Source of the DNA: a virus
Virus record (IMG/VR): IMGVR_UViG_3300045988_129366
Location: 1 to 64,000 of that record
Direction: 5' to 3' (one strand)
Length of the DNA: 64,000 nt
The translations under genes were made by a program, and so were the position numbers. Below are positions 4,548 through 53,053 of this stretch, in pieces (within the stretch, counting starts at the first letter, position 1; the number at the start of each line of letters is the position of its first letter). The notes under the pieces are model-generated. The model was given only the letters and a program-made list of their open reading frames with translations, had not been told where the DNA came from and did not search any database.

Positions 4548-4636
4548 AAGCCCCGTAGCTCAATGGCAGAGCAGCATGTCCGTTTCCCGATAATGGACAT
4601 GCCGATGCAGGTTCAACCCCTGCCGTGTGGCACAAT
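4548..4636 (+). ncRNA. tRNA-like element. It has a canonical D-arm (GTAGCTCAATGGCAGAGCA) and T-arm (GCAGGTTCAACCCCTGC), but the anticodon arm is extended (8-bp stem, 13-nt loop) and the acceptor strands do not pair. It is a possible tRNA pseudogene or tRNA-derived structured RNA.
   Basis: Folded by hand. It lies inside a ~700-nt ORF-free GC-rich stretch (4230-4930) within the early operon. Confidence 0.3.
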
Positions 4637-5360: not shown

Positions 5361-5662
5361 TGGAAACAAAAGTAAGAAAGCTTAAAAAAAAAATAATAAT
5401 GAAAGAAAGCCTTACTCCCGAGCAGACGCAGGAGCTTGCGACCCTTGGATGCGGTCAGCTAACCACGCTGACGTCGGTAATCGGCGCAGTTCCGCTTACA
5501 TACCGGGTTGAACCGGATGCGTATGCCTCCCTTTCGATGCAGTGGGATTACAGCTATGGTGAAGAGTGGGAAGTCGGCTATGCAGATGTGACCGCTCATT
5601 CCGAAGAGCTGATAGACGCGCTTTTCGAGCTAATCAAACTCCTAATTGATAGAGCGCAATGA
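5360..5662 (+). CDS. Hypothetical protein (100 aa).
   Basis: ATG at 5360 overlaps the upstream stop. Its stop overlaps the exonuclease start. Confidence 0.45.
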   Translation: METKVRKLKKKIIMKESLTPEQTQELATLGCGQLTTLTSVIGAVPLTYRVEPDAYASLSMQWDYSYGEEWEVGYADVTAHSEELIDALFELIKLLIDRAQ

Positions 5663-13221: not shown

Positions 13222-14336
13222 ATAAAAAACTACAAGACCTTGTGTGGTCTATCCTCCCGAAAGAGTTCAAGGAGGAAGTGAAGAAACTATATACAGATGC
13301 TCTTGATGCGTCAAACTCACCACATGAGCCCGATGACCGCAAATGGGGTAATTACAGAGTTACACTATTAGAGAAACTTTTCGGCTACCACAACCTCACC
13401 TCTGACGGGGAGGGAGAGGAAATGCTGACGGTGAGCCGTAAGGAAGTAATGCGTAATTTCGCAGAAAAGGTTGCATGGAAAAACCACCATCAATCATCCA
13501 AGCATGATAGAGATATGGCGGCTGGATGGTGTAATGCCCTACATTTTCTTTTCGGCCCCAAGTGCCTGCCGGATGAAAACAAAGAATGTAGTAACCCATC
13601 AGTTGTGAATTGTAAACATAAACATGGTGATGGCACATGCTCACTTAGTGGTATGTGCTGCTATAAATCGCCGAAGCCAGCCGAGCCGGAAGAAAAGGAT
13701 GACTGCAAGAAATTCACCAAAAGGCTTGATGATACCCTTGAAGGAGATATCAAAGAGCCTTTTAAGGAGTGGCGTGACAAAAACTCTTCCAATGTTGAGA
13801 AATTGGAAAAGAATGGAGAAGTTGAGCCGAAGCCAGCCAAGCCGAAGTTTAAGGTGGGAGACAAGGTACGGTATAAAGAGTTTGTAGGCACTGTTTATCA
13901 GATTGAAGAAACAGACTATGTGATTCGGAAATTAGCAGGCGGAGATTTGATTGGATGGTTGAAGGAATCCGACCTCGAACCCTACACCGAGCCGACAAAT
14001 GAGGATTTCGTAACTCTTGGCGTAGAATCCGCAGAATACTTACGAAAATCGCTCGAAGAATCCGAATATCGCAATTCTTCGCAAAATACCGCAAATTGCG
14101 ACAAGCACTTTGACAACATCCTCAAAGACGGCTTCTCAAAAGAGCGGAGACTAAATATTGCAAAAGACTTTGCATCTGTTCTTTTGAGTCGACTGAACTA
14201 CGACCCATTTACGGCTCAGATTAATTGCTGTTGCTCGGGTGGTGCTGCTGTTAATCCATACCTCAATATAGCAAGAATAGCGTTGAGTGTAGCCGATGCC
14301 CTCATAGCAGAATCGGAGAAAGGAGGTGAGAAATAA
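13218..14336 (+). CDS. Multidomain hypothetical protein (372 aa).
   Basis: N-terminal domain paralogous to 11470..11748, a Cys-rich middle (CSNPSVVNCKHKHGDGTCSLSGMCC), a KFKVGDKVRYK SH3/KOW-like motif, and a C-terminal CCCSGG. Confidence 0.45.
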   Translation: MNKKLQDLVWSILPKEFKEEVKKLYTDALDASNSPHEPDDRKWGNYRVTLLEKLFGYHNLTSDGEGEEMLTVSRKEVMRNFAEKVAWKNHHQSSKHDRDMAAGWCNALHFLFGPKCLPDENKECSNPSVVNCKHKHGDGTCSLSGMCCYKSPKPAEPEEKDDCKKFTKRLDDTLEGDIKEPFKEWRDKNSSNVEKLEKNGEVEPKPAKPKFKVGDKVRYKEFVGTVYQIEETDYVIRKLAGGDLIGWLKESDLEPYTEPTNEDFVTLGVESAEYLRKSLEESEYRNSSQNTANCDKHFDNILKDGFSKERRLNIAKDFASVLLSRLNYDPFTAQINCCCSGGAAVNPYLNIARIALSVADALIAESEKGGEK

Positions 14337-14337
14337 A

Positions 14338-14907
14338 ATGGATAACGAATGGTATAATATACCGCTTTACCCAAACTATGAGATTTCAAAGAGTGGATAT
14401 ATCCGAAATAGATATACTCAACGGCTCTTGAAAATACATAAATACCGAGATGGGTACACATACACTCGATTAAGAAATAGTAACAACAAGCCTAAGAATG
14501 TAAAAATACATCGGCTTGTGGCAATGACATTCATTCCAAACCCAGAGAATAAATCATACATCGACCATATAAATAGAAAAAGAGATGACAATCGAATAGA
14601 AAATCTGCGTTGGTGTACGCCGCATGAAAATAACACATTCCCTGAAACACTAAAAGCTCAGAGAATAGCCCATAAGGGCGTACCTCAACCATCATGGGTA
14701 GTGGTCGCTAAAACAAAACGGTTTCGCGAGCTTCAAGGGATTAAAATCAACAGATATTCTCTCAATGGGATATTAATAAAATCATATTCCGCAATGAATG
14801 AAGCTGCGAAAGAGTTTGGCGTAAGATGTCAAGCAATAGCAAATGCTTGTAGAGGTCTTAGAAAGACTGGCCATGAATATCTCGGCTTTATATGGGAAAT
14901 CGCATAA
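14338..14907 (+). CDS. HNH homing-type endonuclease with NUMOD4 motif.
   Basis: WYNIPLYPNYEISKSGYIRNR is NUMOD4. HRLVAMTFIPNPENKSYIDHINRKRDDNRIENLRWCTPHENN is the HNH motif. RBS AGGAGGTGAG lies upstream. Confidence 0.65.
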   Translation: MDNEWYNIPLYPNYEISKSGYIRNRYTQRLLKIHKYRDGYTYTRLRNSNNKPKNVKIHRLVAMTFIPNPENKSYIDHINRKRDDNRIENLRWCTPHENNTFPETLKAQRIAHKGVPQPSWVVVAKTKRFRELQGIKINRYSLNGILIKSYSAMNEAAKEFGVRCQAIANACRGLRKTGHEYLGFIWEIA

Positions 14908-14929
14908 CAAATTATCAATATAAGAACAA

Positions 14930-15148
14930 ATGAACTACGACATAACATTCTGCGAGGGCGAGAACTGCACGCGCAAAGAGGAGTGCCATCGCTACCGCGA
15001 ACTGCTCCGCTTCCGCGCCGACAAAGACCCGAACAAAAAGACTTACATCTCAATATGCAAGCCCGACCCGACTAAATGCACTCTGTTTTGGAGAGAAAAA
15101 GGAGATTGCCCCTCGCCCGAACTCACCGATAAACTGAAAGAAGAATGA
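14930..15148 (+). CDS. Small Cys-rich protein (72 aa), paralog of 8453..8653.
   Basis: Shares the FCEGENCTRKEECHRY motif. Confidence 0.45.
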   Translation: MNYDITFCEGENCTRKEECHRYRELLRFRADKDPNKKTYISICKPDPTKCTLFWREKGDCPSPELTDKLKEE

Positions 15149-15924
15149 AAATAAACTACGTTTCCCTTTGCTCCGGCTATGGAGCAGAGTGCATCGCCTT
15201 TAAGCGATTAAGACGCGACTATCCGGATTTTGACTTTGATTGTCTCGCTTGGTCTGAGATTGAGCCAAACGCAATAAAAGCACACGATGCAATTCATCCA
15301 GAATATATAGACCGTAACGTACACGATTTAACAAAAGTGGATTGGAAAGTATGGCACGAAAGCATAGGCTCACCGCACATCGACCTGCTTTTTGCCTCTA
15401 CGCCTTGTCAATCCGTTTCAAATGCCGGAAAGAACGAGGGCATGAAGAAAGGCACGGACGCGGAATCAGCTCTGATATGGGCGACCGAGAGCTGCATACG
15501 CGCACTCAACCCCAACATCATAATCTACGAGAACGTGAAGGGAATGGTAAGCAAGCGCAACAAGCCGGATTTTGACGAGTGGTGTGCGACCCTTGAATCC
15601 CTCGGTTACGTTGTTCAGTGGAAGATATTGAATGCGAAAGATTATGGTTGCGCCCAAAACAGAGAACGTGTTTTTCCGATAGCGATACGCAAGGATTTGC
15701 CTATGGTGGGACATTACAATTATCCGCAAGGATTCCCTCTCACCAAATGTGTCGAGGACTACATGGAGCCTGCGGAGGAAATCGGAGAGGAGTATTTCAT
15801 ATCACAAGACCGCGTGACGAACAAAGTGCTGCCCGACATACTCGACCAGCCCAACGTCCGCGCAGAAATGGAGAAACTTTATCATGAGGAATGGAAGGAA
15901 GCAAATCGCAATAAACCTGCCTAA
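15145..15924 (+). CDS. DNA (cytosine-5)-methyltransferase, N-terminal part (motifs I-VIII and start of TRD).
   Basis: Motifs present: SLCSGYGAE (motif I), ASTPCQSVSNAGK (PCQ, motif IV), IIYENVKGM (ENV, motif VI), AQNRERVF (motif VIII). It ends in the TRD with no motifs IX/X. Confidence 0.65.
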   Translation: MKINYVSLCSGYGAECIAFKRLRRDYPDFDFDCLAWSEIEPNAIKAHDAIHPEYIDRNVHDLTKVDWKVWHESIGSPHIDLLFASTPCQSVSNAGKNEGMKKGTDAESALIWATESCIRALNPNIIIYENVKGMVSKRNKPDFDEWCATLESLGYVVQWKILNAKDYGCAQNRERVFPIAIRKDLPMVGHYNYPQGFPLTKCVEDYMEPAEEIGEEYFISQDRVTNKVLPDILDQPNVRAEMEKLYHEEWKEANRNKPA

Positions 15925-17248
15925 ATCGGGTGGGGTAAAATATCCCCCACAATTCCTGCCCACTATGGATGGGCGGGATGGACTGACTTTCTCAGGCCTC
16001 CAGTGTTGCACCTCGCGATAATGATGATAGATAAACCGACACATCCCGGTAAACCTAACCAACGGCCTTTGCCCCACGCTGATGAGCCGCGCCTTTGAGA
16101 AAGCGAGAACTTGCTATTACCTCGGTCAGGGCAAAGTGTGGGCTTATTCGGCAATACTTGTGATAGATGATACCGAAAGTGATAAAAGTCGCCGACCTTT
16201 GGCGCGGCAAAATCGTTGACTCGCCGCAAGTCGCGAGGGTCTTTTGGAGCAAGGGAATATCTCCCTCAATCCTCTCCGACCAAGGCGGCGGTGGCAGACA
16301 GATAAAGTTTTTAGTAATCAATGACAAAACAACTCGCAATCAACCTCTATAATGGAGTGTGCTGCACGCTCCACGCACGTTCAGGAGTACATTCGCCATA
16401 CAACATCATGGATTGCCCCCCCCAGATTTCGTCAGACGGCGTTTGTAATAATCGAAAATGAAAACAAAAAGAACGAAACTCCGCTACACCCTCGGACGCA
16501 CCAACCACGGCGGCGAGGACGATAAATTCGGCACGAGCAAATTCCATGTCAACCCATATTTTGCCACCGTCACCGCGATACAGATGTCAAACAGAAGACA
16601 ATGGATAGTAGAAATTACCCCCGATAATAGTTGCGACTGTCAAAGACCGCAATCCAAGTTATAACACAAAGATATGCCAGACGATAAGAAGCAACTCGCA
16701 CGGGGCGATACCTCATTTCATATGGATAGAGCCGAAGCGATAAAGTTCAAGCTGATGCCGGACGGACACATTCGCGGAGTGCAGACGCAACGCCCCGACC
16801 TCGCGAGTGCCGCCGAGTGGATGATTTACTTCACGAACGTGTGCGCCCCGACAATATCGGTCGCCCACGTTCCCAAACTTCTGATAACGGATGAAGCAAT
16901 TCTTGAAAGTCTTATGCGTAGCGTCAAGAGGCAGAGGTGACAACAACGCCCAGCACTTCGAGGCGCGGACAGACGGATGCACCTCGACCTTAACAAGCGT
17001 GACCAAAGACAACCTTATACTCACGATATGCCGAAAGACTACAACGCGCCATACTCCACGCCCTACTACGATGAGTTGAAGCATAACGGCATTCGCCTGC
17101 CATGCTTCCTCACGCACATCCGCACGGATGCGGCGAGGATAGAGAGGCCCAAGGACGCGAGGATGTTCCGTATGATGTTCCTGACTCCGAGAACTGACGG
17201 CTGCTGTGGAACTTTAGACACCCGGTCAATGAGCAATCTGATAATGGA
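15925..17248 (+). other. About 1.3-kb ORF-poor, highly structured insertion separating the two halves of the C5-methyltransferase. Candidate self-splicing intron (possibly with a decayed homing-endonuclease ORF) or a decayed insertion.
   Basis: No ORF over 100 aa on either strand. Hairpins sit directly after the exon-1 stop (GTGGGG-TAAAATAT-CCCCAC). A GGCAGACAGATAAAG segment is reminiscent of the group I R/P7 element. A freestanding HNH gene lies just upstream. Confidence 0.35.
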
Positions 17249-17785
17249 ATGGAGAAAAGATACATAGTCGCCAAGCGCAGAAGCGAGCAGGGCAAGCTGA
17301 TTCGTCGACAATATAAAAACGACATTGGAGTGCCGTATCAACTTTGCAAAGGCTACTCTCTGATGCTTGATGGCTATTCAAACACGATTACTACGTTCAC
17401 AACCGATAATTGGATTTTAGAACTTAAAGACAATGACAATATGGATAACTTAGTTTACCACCCTCACCCTACAAAGGAGCAGCTGCTCGAATACTTCTCG
17501 CAAAGTATTAGGGTGCGCAAGATGACCCCACGCGAGGCGTTCAGACTTATGGATGTTGACGACGCGGACATTGACAAGATAATGAACGCAAAGGAAACGG
17601 TGGTGCTCAAAAACGGCACCACAAAGACACATAAGGCGATAAGCAAGACTGCTTGTTATAAACTTGCAGGTAATTCTATCGTGGTAGCCTGTCTCTACCA
17701 CATCTTCCGCACGATGTTTATTCCCAATCAGCCTGAGAACCAAATCACAAAACCAATCCAACAATCATTATTCGATATATTATGA
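17249..17785 (+). CDS. DNA (cytosine-5)-methyltransferase, C-terminal part (rest of TRD, motifs IX-X).
   Basis: RKMTPREAFRLMDVDDAD is motif IX. LAGNSIVVACLYHIF is motif X. It is in a different reading frame from the N-terminal part. Confidence 0.6.
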   Translation: MEKRYIVAKRRSEQGKLIRRQYKNDIGVPYQLCKGYSLMLDGYSNTITTFTTDNWILELKDNDNMDNLVYHPHPTKEQLLEYFSQSIRVRKMTPREAFRLMDVDDADIDKIMNAKETVVLKNGTTKTHKAISKTACYKLAGNSIVVACLYHIFRTMFIPNQPENQITKPIQQSLFDIL

Positions 17786-52981: not shown

Positions 52982-53053
52982 TGGCGCGGGACGGACTCGA
53001 ACCGCCGACCTTTGGGATATGAACCCAACGAGCTACCGCTGCTCTACCGCGCT
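52982..53053 (-). tRNA. tRNA-Met (anticodon CAU) with initiator-like features.
   Basis: Hand-folded cloverleaf: acceptor AGCGCGG/CCGCGCC (position 1:72 unpaired), D-arm GAGC-AGCGGTA-GCTC, anticodon arm TTGGG-TTCATAT-CCCAA (three G:C pairs closing the loop), variable AGGTC, T-arm GGCGG-TTCGAGT-CCGTC. The gene is 72 nt. Confidence 0.75.

What the first reader, a model, noticed from the sequence alone, without database searches (positions are those of the whole stretch)
15145..17785. C5-cytosine methyltransferase split by a 1.3-kb ORF-free structured insertion, with a freestanding HNH gene next door
Motifs I, IV (PCQ), VI (ENV) and VIII lie in ORF 15145..15924. Motifs IX and X lie in ORF 17249..17785. 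The two ORFs are in different frames and 1324 nt apart. The intervening DNA has no ORF over 100 aa on either strand, is GC-rich, starts with stable hairpins right after the exon-1 stop, and contains a segment (GGCAGACAGATAAAG) resembling the group I intron R/P7 core. A NUMOD4-HNH homing-type endonuclease (14338..14907) and a small Cys-rich ORF sit immediately upstream. Three readings are possible. It may be a self-splicing group I or II intron, possibly with a decayed homing-endonuclease ORF. It may be an M.AquI-like two-subunit methyltransferase pried apart by an insertion. It may be a pseudogene.
Basis: partly seen in the sequence, partly recalled or inferred. Interest (0 to 1): 0.8.

Follow-up and report, generated by a model that had tools for sequence, protein, structure and literature searches.

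The report
Split phage methyltransferase with specificity mini-genes
The 1.3-kb "gap" in this phage DNA-methyltransferase gene is not an intron but a train of short overlapping genes, each encoding one DNA-recognition module. This layout recurs in many gut phages, where it is packed with mutation-prone G/C runs, and it may let a phage vary which DNA sequences it methylates.

Summary
The two ORFs are real. A (15145-15924) carries C5-methyltransferase motifs I-VIII. B (17249-17785) carries one target-recognition domain (TRD) plus motifs IX-X. The intron reading fails: Rfam finds no group I or II intron even at E<=10, and the intervening DNA is coding. It is tiled by eight TRD-type mini-ORFs (45-96 aa). 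Most start at an ATG embedded in the tail of the previous ORF, usually in the +1 frame. Five are intact. Three are broken, one of them at the only C8 run in the 64 kb.

These modules are under purifying selection (T8 dN/dS about 0.05-0.14). They occur as stand-alone ORFs with conserved Met starts in dozens of contigs, and in relatives they sit fused to the motif IX-X block. The A / array / B layout recurs in phages whose A halves are only 37-47% identical. There the arrays carry G/C runs of 7 nt or more at 2.4 per kb, against 0.02 per kb in flanks. Run lengths differ between near-identical genomes. Module order and content are mosaic.

Best reading: an M.AquI-like split, multispecific anti-restriction methyltransferase with TRDs encoded as separate, partly phase-variable cassettes. 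Whether free TRD peptides act in trans is inferred, not shown.

The parts
15145..15924 (+). A subunit ORF (259 aa). It carries C5-MTase motifs I-VIII and ends in the proximal variable region after ...DQPNVRAEMEKLYHEEWKE.
   Evidence: PF00145 positions 2-216, E 4e-47. M.HhaI match E 3e-19. Mismatches to relatives by codon position 188/143/770. 111 of the 120 best homologs are 213-290 aa and stop at the same place.
15884..16098 (+). T1, a degenerate TRD module. It starts MRNGRKQIAINLPKSGG in the +1 frame (ATG 15884 inside A's ..YHEE..). At the interrupted G-run GGGTGGGG (15927-15934) it continues in another frame (..ISPTIPAHYGWAGWTDFLRPPVLHLAIMMID).
   Evidence: Translations. Relatives have G7-G9 at this position (L002, L004, L005, L009, L011, L012). 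73% DNA identity to L010/L011 through 16178. No codon-position bias (14/22/22). The homology of the second-frame part to relatives' T1 is weak and read by eye.
16031..16219 (+). T2, a TRD module (..IPVNLTNGLCPTLMSRAFEKAR..AILVIDD). Its start codon is lost: ATA where L011 has ATG (MKQIPINCANGLCPTL).
   Evidence: Codon-position mismatches 17/12/34.
16167..16352 (+). T3, an intact 61-aa mini-ORF: MIPKVIKVADLWRGKIVDSPQVARVFWSKGISPSILSDQGGGGRQIKFLVIND... Its ATG is embedded in T2's ..VIDD.. (gATGAt).
   Evidence: Stand-alone homologs P0152 (61 aa, 82%) and P0156 (55 aa). Similar (E 6e-5) to in-frame TRD repeats of P0158, which ends in motifs IX-X. Collinear with the M.HhaI TRD, residues 218-280 (not significant on its own).
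16321..16525 (+). T4, a TRD module: MTKQLAINLYNGVCCTLHARSGVHSPYNIMDCPP | RFRQTAFVIIE.. It is split by a frameshift at the C8 run. C7 would restore one 67-aa ORF.
   Evidence: The homologous module is in frame in L002 (C7), L005 (C8) and L006 (no run), and out of frame in L009 (C8) and L011 (C9).
16416..16423 (+). C8 homopolymer, the only G/C run of 7 nt or more in the whole 64-kb window. It is a candidate slipped-strand switch for T4.
   Evidence: Family-wide enrichment of such runs: 84 in 35.1 kb of arrays against 3 in 151.9 kb of flanks.
16458..16664 (+). T5, an intact 68-aa mini-ORF: MKTKRTKLRYTLGRTNHGGEDDKFGTSKFHVNPYFATVTAIQMSNRRQWIVEI.. Its ATG sits in aATGAa.
   Evidence: Homologous modules occur in L003, L006, L009, L011 and P0160. 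Codon-position mismatches 22/20/37.
16674..16940 (+). T6, an intact 88-aa mini-ORF: ..IKFKLMPDGHIRGVQTQRPDLASAAEWMIYFTNVCAPTISVAHVPKLLITDE..
   Evidence: tblastn to Dulem virus 40 B protein residues 224-284, which lie directly before motif IX there (E 8e-10). Fused to B in L011 and stand-alone in L003. pN/pS 0.17-0.38.
16891..17079 (+). T7, an intact 62-aa mini-ORF: MKQFLKVLCVASRGRGDNNAQHFEARTDGCTSTLTSVTKDNLILT.. Its ATG sits in gATGAa inside T6's ..ITDE..
   Evidence: Stand-alone in L006. It forms the N-terminus of the B ORF in L003 and L009. pN/pS 0.14-0.28.
16977..17267 (+). T8, an intact mini-ORF (96 aa from ATG 16977; the conserved start is probably ATG 17028, MPKDY..): ..PYSTPYYDELKHNGIRLPCFLTHIRTDAARIERPKDARMFRMMFLTPRTDGCCGTLDTRSMSNLIM..
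   Evidence: 30 homolog clusters, 50-91% identity, nearly all stand-alone at 55-104 aa, most with a Met (usually M-K) directly before the conserved ..DY..PY(S/T)TPYY.. Fused to the C block in P0149. dN/dS about 0.05-0.14 among five stand-alone copies. Codon-position mismatches 61/52/166.
17249..17785 (+). B subunit ORF (178 aa). It is TRD T9 (..KRRSEQGKLIRRQYKNDIGVPYQLCKGYSLMLDGYSNTITTFTTDNWILEL) plus the conserved C block from about 17453 (VYHPHPTKEQLLEYF.., motif IX RKMTPREAFRLM, motif X GNSIVV). Its ATG is embedded in T8's ..MEW.. tail.
   Evidence: PF00145 positions 269-322. phrog_116 E 5e-11. 770 homologs, of which the best 120 are all 169-291 aa. Codon-position mismatches 129/70/326 for the C block. 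T9 pN/pS 0.05.
14326..14907 (+). Free-standing NUMOD4-HNH endonuclease gene. It is a neighbour, not part of the enzyme.
   Evidence: HNH_3 E 8.5e-10 and NUMOD4 E 1.4e-4. phrog_59 E 1e-33. Homologs sit upstream of, downstream of or inside the MTase locus in more than 20 relatives.

Best explanation
The locus is one operon-like unit encoding a split, multispecific DNA cytosine-5 methyltransferase, most likely an anti-restriction enzyme of an uncultured gut phage.

Components:
- ORF A supplies the catalytic and AdoMet-binding motifs I-VIII.
- ORF B supplies one target-recognition domain (T9) fused to motifs IX-X.
- The 1.3 kb between them encodes eight further target-recognition modules (T1-T8) as separate short ORFs.

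Each module spans the stretch that in M.HhaI lies between motifs VIII and IX: a leading beta-strand such as KQIAINL, a ..T-[LI].. recognition core, and a closing beta-strand such as ..VIND. Each new ORF usually begins at an ATG buried in the last codons of the preceding one (xATGAx), mostly in the +1 frame. A cassette can therefore be lost, swapped or frameshifted without affecting its neighbours.

In this window T3, T5, T6, T7 and T8 are intact. T1 and T4 are frameshifted at a degenerate G-run and at a C8 run. T2 has lost its ATG.

Across the family, each module typically carries a G or C run of 7-11 nt in a Gly or Pro loop. Its length sets the module in or out of frame. This looks like slipped-strand phase variation of individual specificities.

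Shown: the architecture, its conservation, purifying selection on the modules, conserved Met starts, run enrichment and run-length polymorphism, and cassette exchange.

Inferred:
- A and B assemble non-covalently as M.AquI alpha/beta do.
- The mini-ORFs are translated, perhaps by coupling.
- The free TRD peptides dock on the A-B core in trans and add specificities.
- Switching modules on and off lets the phage population hedge between restriction systems that cut unmethylated DNA and those that cut methylated DNA.
For: A and B are conserved separate ORFs:
- 111 of the 120 best A homologs are 213-290 aa.
- All 120 best B homologs are 169-291 aa.

The gap is coding:
- Third-position excess of substitutions in each module's own frame: T8 61/52/166, T9 22/18/48, T6 46/24/72, T2 17/12/34.
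- NG86 for T8: pN 0.06-0.26 against pS 0.6-0.85 among five stand-alone copies.
- T6, T7 and T9 have pN/pS of 0.05-0.38.

The modules are TRDs:
- T6 matches the segment directly before motif IX in the Dulem virus B protein (E 8e-10).
- T8, T7 and T6 are fused in frame to the C block in P0149/L002, L003/L009 and L011.
- T3 matches in-frame TRD repeats of P0158 and is collinear with the M.HhaI TRD.

The modules are separate genes:
- The T8 family has 30 clusters, nearly all 55-104 aa, most starting with a Met directly before the conserved core and stopping just after it.
- T3 has 55-61-aa stand-alone homologs.
- A Met lies at the start of the conserved region in 99 of 152 plus-strand module ORFs, against 4 of 63 minus-strand control ORFs.

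The layout recurs in phages with 37-47% A identity: L002, L003, L045, L057, L066, L071, L072, L074, L075, L078, L083, L084, L087, L090, L092. One example is the junction TATGAGAC.GA.TGA (YETE*/MRQ.), repeated five times in L092.

Hypermutable runs:
- 84 G/C runs of 7 nt or more in 35.1 kb of arrays, against 3 in 151.9 kb of flanks.
- None in 22 kb of single-chain relatives.
- The runs sit in Gly/Pro loops of modules.
- L011 G8 against L010 G9, and L006 T6 against L008 T7, in near-identical genomes.
- C7, C8 or C9 at the position of the window's C8.

Cassette exchange:
- Order differs between relatives.
- In L095-097, flanks are 86-96% identical but T3-T5 are replaced.

Precedent for non-covalent assembly: M.AquI and M.EcoHK31I are natural two-polypeptide C5 MTases, and fragments split in the proximal variable region complement each other (PMC3404938).
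Against: - No direct evidence that the mini-ORFs are translated or that a free TRD peptide can work in trans. No such C5-MTase subunit is known to me.
- AlphaFold gave low confidence for T8 alone (pLDDT 56) and for T3 placed in cis between A and the C block (residues 259-296 below 50).
- Adding modules raises the PF00145 score by only 3-8 bits, and T8 lowers it slightly (-0.6 bit).
- Three of the eight modules here are defective. In the family only about one third of runs are in frame by a crude call (27 ON, 58 OFF). That is what random phase or relaxed constraint would give.
- This window has only one long run, and the identical copies in the JGI (L093) and HMP (L094) contigs show no length variation.
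- The host uses no Shine-Dalgarno sites (5 of 49 long ORFs, against 12% background), so ribosome-binding sites cannot support the starts.
- Start-to-stop overlaps of up to about 50 nt are long for classical termination-reinitiation coupling.
Confidence: 0.62

Rival explanations
1. Silent-cassette reservoir. Only the TRD(s) fused to motifs IX-X in B are used by the enzyme. The upstream modules are a store of alternative TRDs. Homologous recombination at the conserved junction sequences moves them into the B position, changing specificity over evolutionary or population time.
For: - The same module families are found either free or fused to the C block in different genomes.
- Module order is mosaic, and whole blocks are exchanged between near-identical phages.
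- Junction motifs recur (AAGCAAATCGCAATAAACCT-like, three copies; TCTGATAAYGGA, two copies).
- Contigs often break just after A (L008, L010, L012).
- Some modules are broken.
Against: - Silent cassettes need no start codons, yet a Met marks the start of 65% of module ORFs against 6% of controls.
- The T8 family keeps a stand-alone ORF, mostly with a Met start and always with a stop just after the core, across 50-91% identity, with dN/dS about 0.05-0.14.
- In L016-type loci an array lies downstream of a permuted core, with no motif IX-X block to be recombined into.
Confidence: 0.2
2. Frameshift-fused polyprotein. Ribosomal or transcriptional slippage at the junctions and homopolymers joins A, some modules and B into single-chain multispecific enzymes.
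For: - Junctions are mostly +1. In L092 the stop lies only 11 nt after the next ATG, so a +1 shift at the stop would give a sensible fusion.
- Homonucleotide runs are known to allow bypass of frameshifts in M.HaeIII (PMC3812077, abstract).
- Single-chain relatives exist (P0026, L013, L022 and others).
Against: - In the window family the conserved first beta-strand (KQIAINL) is encoded upstream of the previous ORF's stop, so a shift at the stop would skip it.
- No canonical slippery motif was seen by eye at the junctions.
- Shifts occur in both directions: +1 at seven junctions here, -1 at two.
- Conserved ATGs would be unnecessary.
- Eight to ten successive shifts would give a negligible yield.
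Confidence: 0.08
3. Decaying remnant. An ancestral single-chain multispecific gene has been broken by mutations, only A and B (or nothing) still function, and the middle is junk on its way out.
For: - T1, T2 and T4 are defective here.
- T6 is broken in L006 and L009.
- About one third of runs are in frame.
- P0010 is a deletion variant lacking all TRDs and motif IX.
Against: - The same layout persists in lineages with saturated synonymous divergence, and the modules are under purifying selection.
- Neutral decay does not build G8-G11 runs at 120-fold excess.
- Neutral decay does not conserve start codons.
Confidence: 0.06
4. Self-splicing group I or II intron (possibly with a decayed homing-endonuclease ORF) interrupting a single methyltransferase gene.
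For: - A and B are in different frames, with a GC-richer stretch between them.
- Hairpins follow the A stop (z -2.26).
- HNH genes cluster around such loci.
Against: - No Rfam intron hit at the gathering threshold or at E<=10 in the window, and none in 10 relatives.
- The whole interval is accounted for by TRD-coding modules under selection.
- The homology break points (about 15900 and about 17455) flank a mosaic of coding cassettes, not a conserved RNA core.
Confidence: 0.01

Closest known systems
M.AquI (two-polypeptide C5 methyltransferase of Agmenellum quadruplicatum)
   Same: The split lies in the variable region. One polypeptide has motifs I-VIII. The other has the distal variable region plus IX-X (as summarised in PMC3404938). 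The A and B ORFs here have the same content.
   Different: M.AquI has one specificity and, as I recall, two adjacent or overlapping genes. Here A and B are 1.3 kb apart with eight extra TRD ORFs between them, and the split point is at the very start of the variable region.
Multispecific C5 methyltransferases of Bacillus phages (SPR, phi3T, rho11s, H2 types)
   Same: Phage-encoded anti-restriction enzymes that array several independent TRDs between motifs VIII and IX (PMC12707154, citing Trautner et al. 1996). Inactive 'pseudo' TRDs are also known there (from memory).
   Different: Those enzymes carry all TRDs in a single polypeptide. Here each TRD has its own start and stop, in shifting frames. 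The core is split, and the family carries hypermutable runs.
M.EcoHK31I (alpha plus a 61-aa beta polypeptide)
   Same: A small polypeptide encoded in another frame supplies a missing part of a C5 MTase in trans (motif IX; PMC3404938).
   Different: The small subunit there is motif IX, not a TRD. There is one copy, with no array and no repeats.
Phase-variable restriction-modification methyltransferases (phasevarions; poly-G genes of Campylobacter, Neisseria, Helicobacter)
   Same: Homopolymeric G/C runs inside coding sequence whose length changes switch expression (PMC12707154, PMC6321876, PMC4889913).
   Different: Those are bacterial Type I, IIG or III systems with usually one run per gene that switches the whole enzyme. 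Here up to 12 runs sit in one phage locus, roughly one per recognition module.
Type I HsdS specificity subunits
   Same: A separate, exchangeable polypeptide carries the TRDs and is swapped by recombination (PMC12707154).
   Different: Unrelated fold and enzyme class (N6-adenine). The analogy is functional only and is untested here.

Membership tests
Group I intron | Conserved catalytic core (P3-P8 with the P7 G-binding site) detectable by covariance model RF00028 | tested here: not met
   No hit at the gathering threshold or at E<=10 over 15700-17500. None in 10 relatives. Rfam's model can miss divergent subgroups.
Group I or II intron | Precise removal joins two exons into one reading frame, and the intervening RNA is non-coding apart from an optional endonuclease or maturase ORF | tested here: not met
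   The interval is tiled by TRD-coding modules under purifying selection. Relatives have the same modules in frame with the C block.
Group II intron | Domain V/VI and D1-D4 structures (RF00029, RF01998-RF02012) | tested here: not met
   No hit at E<=10.
DNA cytosine-5 methyltransferase (PF00145) | Motifs I, IV (PCQ), VI (ENV), VIII, IX and X | tested here: met
   A covers profile positions 2-216 (E 4e-47). B covers 269-322, but alone scores 18.9 bits, under the 22-bit cut-off. A conceptual A+C-block fusion covers 2-322 in one stretch at 176 bits. M.HhaI match E 3e-19.
M.AquI-type two-polypeptide C5 methyltransferase | Break within the variable region, with I-VIII on one ORF and the TRD part plus IX-X on the other | tested here: met
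   A and B are conserved as separate ORFs in hundreds of homologs.
M.AquI-type two-polypeptide C5 methyltransferase | Both polypeptides are required, and together sufficient, for methylation | not testable with these tools
   Needs co-expression and methylation assays.
Multispecific phage C5 methyltransferase (SPR/phi3T type) | Several TRDs in tandem between motifs VIII and IX | tested here: met
   Nine TRD-type modules lie between motifs VIII and IX at the DNA level.
Multispecific phage C5 methyltransferase (SPR/phi3T type) | All TRDs and the core are part of one polypeptide | tested here: not met
   There are ten or more separate ORFs in shifting frames, and the same holds in distant relatives.
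Simple-sequence-repeat contingency (phase-variable) locus | Homopolymeric run of about 7 nt or more inside the coding sequence | tested here: met
   C8 at 16416-16423, the only such run in 64 kb. Family: 2.39 per kb in arrays against 0.02 per kb in flanks.
Simple-sequence-repeat contingency (phase-variable) locus | Run length differs between close relatives and changes the frame | tested here: met
   In the family: L011 G8 against L010 G9, and C7/C8/C9 at the homologous T4 site. Not seen for this window's own run, since L093 and L094 are identical.
Simple-sequence-repeat contingency (phase-variable) locus | Reversible switching within a population | not testable with these tools
   Needs read-level or single-plaque data.
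C5-MTase target-recognition domain fold (for the free modules) | The module adopts the small-domain TRD structure next to motif IX | tested here: inconclusive
   AlphaFold: T8 alone has pLDDT 56. T3 in a cis fusion scores below 50 while the core is confident. The alignments for the module parts were shallow.
Homing endonuclease (HNH/NUMOD4) associated with an intron or intein | HNH and NUMOD domains | tested here: met
   HNH_3 E 8.5e-10, NUMOD4 E 1.4e-4, NUMOD1 E 6.5e-3.
Homing endonuclease (HNH/NUMOD4) associated with an intron or intein | Encoded inside an intron or intein | tested here: not met
   It is a free-standing ORF 238 nt upstream of A, with another ORF in between.

The most novel reading that the evidence does not exclude
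A C5 methyltransferase core (A+B) uses freely exchangeable, separately translated 45-90-residue TRD peptides as trans-acting specificity subunits. Each is individually switched on or off by its own G/C run. A phage population would then carry a combinatorial and reversible repertoire of methylation specificities, a bet-hedge between methylation-sensitive and methylation-dependent host restriction.
Probability: 0.3. Interest if true: 0.9.

Novelty: new variant of a known kind. Interest (0 to 1): 0.72.

Why it matters
Phage multispecific methyltransferases are the textbook example of modular DNA recognition, but they are known only as single polypeptides from a few Bacillus phages. This finding shows a widespread gut-phage design that differs in four ways:
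- the core is split;
- each recognition module is its own small gene;
- modules are shuffled between genomes;
- in most relatives each module carries a hypermutable run.

If the modules work in trans, this would be a cytosine-methyltransferase counterpart of the Type I specificity subunit. It would also be a natural toolkit of minimal, portable DNA-recognition peptides.

If the runs do switch, it would be, as far as my searches show, an undescribed case of a virus using multi-site phase variation of its own epigenetic mark.

There is also a practical point. Gene callers and annotators see these loci as a truncated methylase plus 'hypothetical proteins', and assemblies break there.

Tried and rejected
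- Rfam at the gathering threshold and at E<=10 found no intron. The only weak hits (an lncRNA fragment and the serC leader) are chance.
- Stop-codon reassignment was rejected. All three stop codons occur in every frame and the frames themselves differ.
- T4 gene-60-type translational bypass at the hairpin after the A stop was rejected. A matching GCC landing codon exists, but it leads into a non-homologous frame (reading).
- DNA search against the phage collection found only Dulem virus 40, at 69% over the A ORF.
- A greedy ORF-path walk through the arrays was too crude to quantify frame order (108 +1 steps against 77 +2 steps).
- A cross-family ORF similarity test was confounded by residual DNA similarity on the minus strand. 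I replaced it with the Met-at-start test.
- AlphaFold of T8 alone and of an A+T3+C fusion was uninformative for the modules, so I ran no fold search.
- Pfam scoring of conceptual fusions gave only 3-8 extra bits.
- The three top hits to T3 in the representative library (P0151, P0153, P0154) are tandem-repeat junk.
- The 72-aa Cys-rich ORF, the 372-aa upstream ORF and the 114-aa downstream ORF have no homologs in the related loci and are not part of the system.
- Seven literature searches found no description of this architecture. The library lacks most subscription-journal papers, so prior description cannot be excluded.

Full report
**1. What is at the coordinates**

The plus strand holds two ORFs.
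- ORF A, 15145..15924 (259 aa), matches Pfam DNA_methylase positions 2-216 of 324 (E 4e-47).
- ORF B, 17249..17785 (178 aa), matches positions 269-322 (E 1e-3, 18.9 bits, under the 22-bit cut-off). Against PHROGs, phrog_116 gives 206-379 for A and 416-490 for B.

The motif strings are visible: SGYG, TPCQ, ENV and QNRER in A; RKMTPREAFRLM and GNSIVV in B.

The ORFs are in different frames and 1324 nt apart. The interval is slightly GC-richer than its flanks. Two hairpins follow the A stop (z -2.26). Upstream lie an HNH_3/NUMOD4 gene and a 72-aa Cys-rich ORF.

The sequence of 13749-21285 is 100% identical in the 76.6-kb JGI contig L093. That of 15069-21285 is 100% identical in an HMP contig from another sample, L094. 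The frame structure is therefore unlikely to be an assembly error.

Two details of the observation fail.
- A 134-aa ORF lies on the minus strand (16713..17117).
- The interval is not 'ORF-free'. It is tiled by 45-96-aa plus-strand ORFs.

**2. Not an intron**

Rfam gives no group I or II hit at the gathering threshold in the window. It gives none at E<=10 over 15700-17500, and none in ten related loci. More decisively, the interval can be read as protein.

**3. What the interval encodes**

Three-frame translation shows a series of segments with the look of C5-methyltransferase variable regions:
- KQIAINL..,
- ..GLCPTLMSR..,
- ..GISPSILSDQGGGG..,
- ..NGVCCTLHARSG..,
- ..ATVTAIQ..,
- ..CAPTISVAH..,
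- ..DGCTSTLTSVTKDNLIL,
- ..DGCCGTLDTRSMSNLIM,
- ..DGYSNTITTFTTDNWILEL.

Tests support this reading.
- T6 (16674-16940) matches residues 224-284 of the second methylase ORF of Dulem virus 40. Those residues lie directly before motif IX there (E 8e-10).
- T3 matches in-frame TRD repeats of P0158, a 256-aa protein ending in motifs IX-X (E 6e-5 in a library of 1.8 billion proteins).
- T3 is also collinear with M.HhaI 218-280, the HhaI TRD (not significant on its own).
- T8, T7 and T6 are found fused in frame to the conserved C block in P0149/L002, in L003/L009 and in L011.

I count eight free modules (T1-T8) plus T9, which is the N-terminal half of B. Coordinates are in the parts list.

**4. The modules are separate genes, not exons or debris**

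Successive modules abut or overlap, so there is no room for introns.

Most begin at an ATG embedded in the last codons of the preceding ORF:
- T3, gATGAt;
- T4, aATGAc;
- T5, aATGAa;
- T7, gATGAa;
- B, aATGGa;
- T1, cATGAg inside A's ..YHEE...

Counting frame steps across the broken modules, seven of ten junctions step +1, two step -1, and one keeps the frame after a 9-nt spacer.

Substitutions against relatives pile up at third codon positions in each module's own frame:

| Element | Mismatches at codon positions 1/2/3 |
|---|---|
| A | 188/143/770 |
| C block | 129/70/326 |
| T8 | 61/52/166 |
| T9 | 22/18/48 |
| T6 | 46/24/72 |
| T2 | 17/12/34 |
| T5 | 22/20/37 |

The Nei-Gojobori counts agree.
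- Five stand-alone T8 copies give pN 0.06-0.26 against a near-saturated pS of 0.6-0.85. Where computable, dN/dS is 0.05-0.14.
- T6, T7 and T9 give pN/pS of 0.05-0.38.

A database search with T8 found 30 clusters at 50-91% identity. Nearly all are 55-104 aa, most with a Met (usually M-K) directly before the conserved ..DY..PY(S/T)TPYYDELK.. core and a stop just after ..SNLIM.W. T3 has 55-61-aa stand-alone homologs that start at the same residue.

Across 20 split loci, 99 of 152 plus-strand module ORFs have a Met at the start of their conserved region. Only 4 of 63 minus-strand control ORFs do.

**5. The layout is a conserved family trait**

- 111 of the 120 best homologs of A (50-94% identity) are 213-290 aa and stop right after ..LYHEEW. 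Only P0026 (407 aa) is a complete single chain.
- All 120 best homologs of B are 169-291 aa.
- DNA comparison shows a conserved N block ending at about 15900 and a conserved C block starting at about 17455. Between them lies a mosaic of modules shared piecewise and in different order.
- A scan of viral contigs found the same A / array / B arrangement in phages whose A halves are only 37-47% identical. The spacing is 0.7-2.6 kb, with regular junctions. One example is TATGAGAC.GA.TGA (YETE*/MRQ.), which occurs five times in L092 and steps +1 each time.
- Single-chain relatives also exist (L013, L022 and others).
- In phages with 99% identical B proteins, the flanks are 86-96% identical to the window, but T3-T5 are replaced by other modules.

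**6. Hypermutable runs**

In 20 split loci, G or C runs of 7 nt or more occur 84 times in 35.1 kb of arrays (2.39 per kb). They occur 3 times in 151.9 kb of flanks (0.02 per kb). There are none in 22 kb of single-chain methylase ORFs. One array, L074, has 12 runs (G8-G11, C8-C10).

The runs sit in Gly or Pro loops of modules, for example ..SPAIMTM[G9]REPMIATYED. Some sit at the 5' end of the B ORF.

Lengths differ between near-identical genomes:
- L011 G8 against L010 G9;
- L006 T6 against L008 T7, the only indel in 6 kb.

By a crude call, 27 runs are in frame and 58 are not.

The window is a run-poor member. Its only long run in 64 kb is C8 at 16416-16423, which puts T4 out of frame. The homologous site is C7 (in frame) in L002, C8 (in frame) in L005, C8 or C9 (out of frame) in L009 and L011, and has no run in L006. 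T1 is broken at an interrupted G-run where relatives have G7-G9. T2 has ATA in place of its ATG.

**7. Mechanism**

Shown: a split core, a train of constrained TRD mini-genes with their own starts, cassette exchange, and (family-wide) run-length polymorphism that sets modules in or out of frame.

Inferred:
- A and B assemble like M.AquI alpha/beta. Natural two-polypeptide C5 MTases exist, and fragments cut in the proximal variable region complement each other (PMC3404938).
- The mini-ORFs are translated.
- Free TRD peptides dock on the core in trans, adding specificities as the tandem TRDs of Bacillus phage enzymes do in cis (PMC12707154).
- Run slippage switches individual specificities.

L016-type relatives favour the trans reading or a C-terminal cis reading. 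Their core is circularly permuted (TRD-IX-X-I..VIII in one 546-aa ORF), with arrays on both sides and no IX-X block downstream.

Against the trans step:
- there is no precedent for it;
- the AlphaFold results for the modules are uninformative;
- only about one third of runs are in frame.

The main rival is a silent-cassette reservoir. Frameshift fusion, decay and an intron are less likely, for the reasons given under rival explanations.

**8. Neighbours**

The HNH gene is real but free-standing. Homologs sit upstream of, downstream of or inside the methylase locus in more than 20 relatives. It is best seen as a recurrent selfish neighbour. The Cys-rich ORF is not conserved in the related loci.

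**9. Novelty**

Seven full-text searches found no description of TRD mini-ORF arrays or of run-laden phage methylase loci. The library is incomplete. I file this as a new variant of known kinds, combining a split C5 MTase, a multispecific phage MTase and a contingency locus.

Noticed in passing
L016 3611-7562 (also L014-L021, L025, L028, L044, L069, L070): The core enzyme is circularly permuted in one 546-aa ORF (TRD, motifs IX-X, then I-VIII; L016 4203-5840) that itself starts at a poly-G run. Run-rich TRD mini-ORF arrays flank it on both sides, and no IX-X block lies downstream.
   Followed up: partly
L004 5755-6354 and 7385-8236; L072 6219-6710; L074 8491-9027; L009 3450-4004: NUMOD4-HNH endonuclease genes recur immediately upstream of, downstream of or inside these methylase loci. 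In L004 a 39-nt copy of the methylase 3' end (89.7% identical to window 17702-17740) follows the HNH gene, as if the end had been duplicated on insertion.
   Followed up: partly
L005 5770-6900; L007 6988-7744: An IS605-family TnpB (OrfB_IS605/Cas12f-like) gene is inserted inside the TRD array of L005. A Y1 transposase plus TnpB lie near the locus in L007.
   Followed up: no
L001 3754-3801 (Dulem virus 40, PP511379): The two annotated methylase CDSs of Dulem virus 40 are separated by an in-frame TAA, where the relative P0031 reads Tyr (..TIMSNYGQRETDPY..). Its split is therefore a single nonsense codon, not a frame change.
   Followed up: partly
P0010 (284 aa, 20-kb contig): An in-frame deletion variant joins ..CVEDYM of A directly to DVDDADIDKI.. 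of B. It removes all TRDs and motif IX and is presumably inactive.
   Followed up: no
L003 5400-6185 (-): A serine recombinase (resolvase/invertase-like, ..YNRASTDSQ.., ..SRLGRN..) lies directly after the methylase locus. All modules are co-oriented, so inversion switching seems unlikely.
   Followed up: no
L008, L010, L012 (contig ends): Several contigs end a few hundred bases after the A ORF. This fits assemblers breaking in a repetitive or heterogeneous array.
   Followed up: no
window 5384-5393: An A10 homopolymer, the longest run in the window, lies outside the methylase locus.
   Followed up: no
window 16713-17117 (-): A 134-aa minus-strand ORF lies antisense to modules T6-T8. It is probably a by-product of the coding strand's composition, because the selection signal is in the plus-strand frames.
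   Followed up: partly
window 4554-4625 (+) and 52982-53053 (-): Two tRNA genes were found by Rfam, at 30.3 and 62.1 bits. The window otherwise looks like a tailed-phage genome, with 1186-2437-aa ORFs on the minus strand and a RecT/exonuclease block 85% identical to Dulem virus 40.
   Followed up: no
window, all long ORFs: Shine-Dalgarno-like motifs are not enriched upstream of genes (5 of 49 against 12% background), and positions -14 to -11 are A-rich. This fits a Bacteroidota-type host, and one A homolog (P0015) comes from a Bacteroides MAG.
   Followed up: partly
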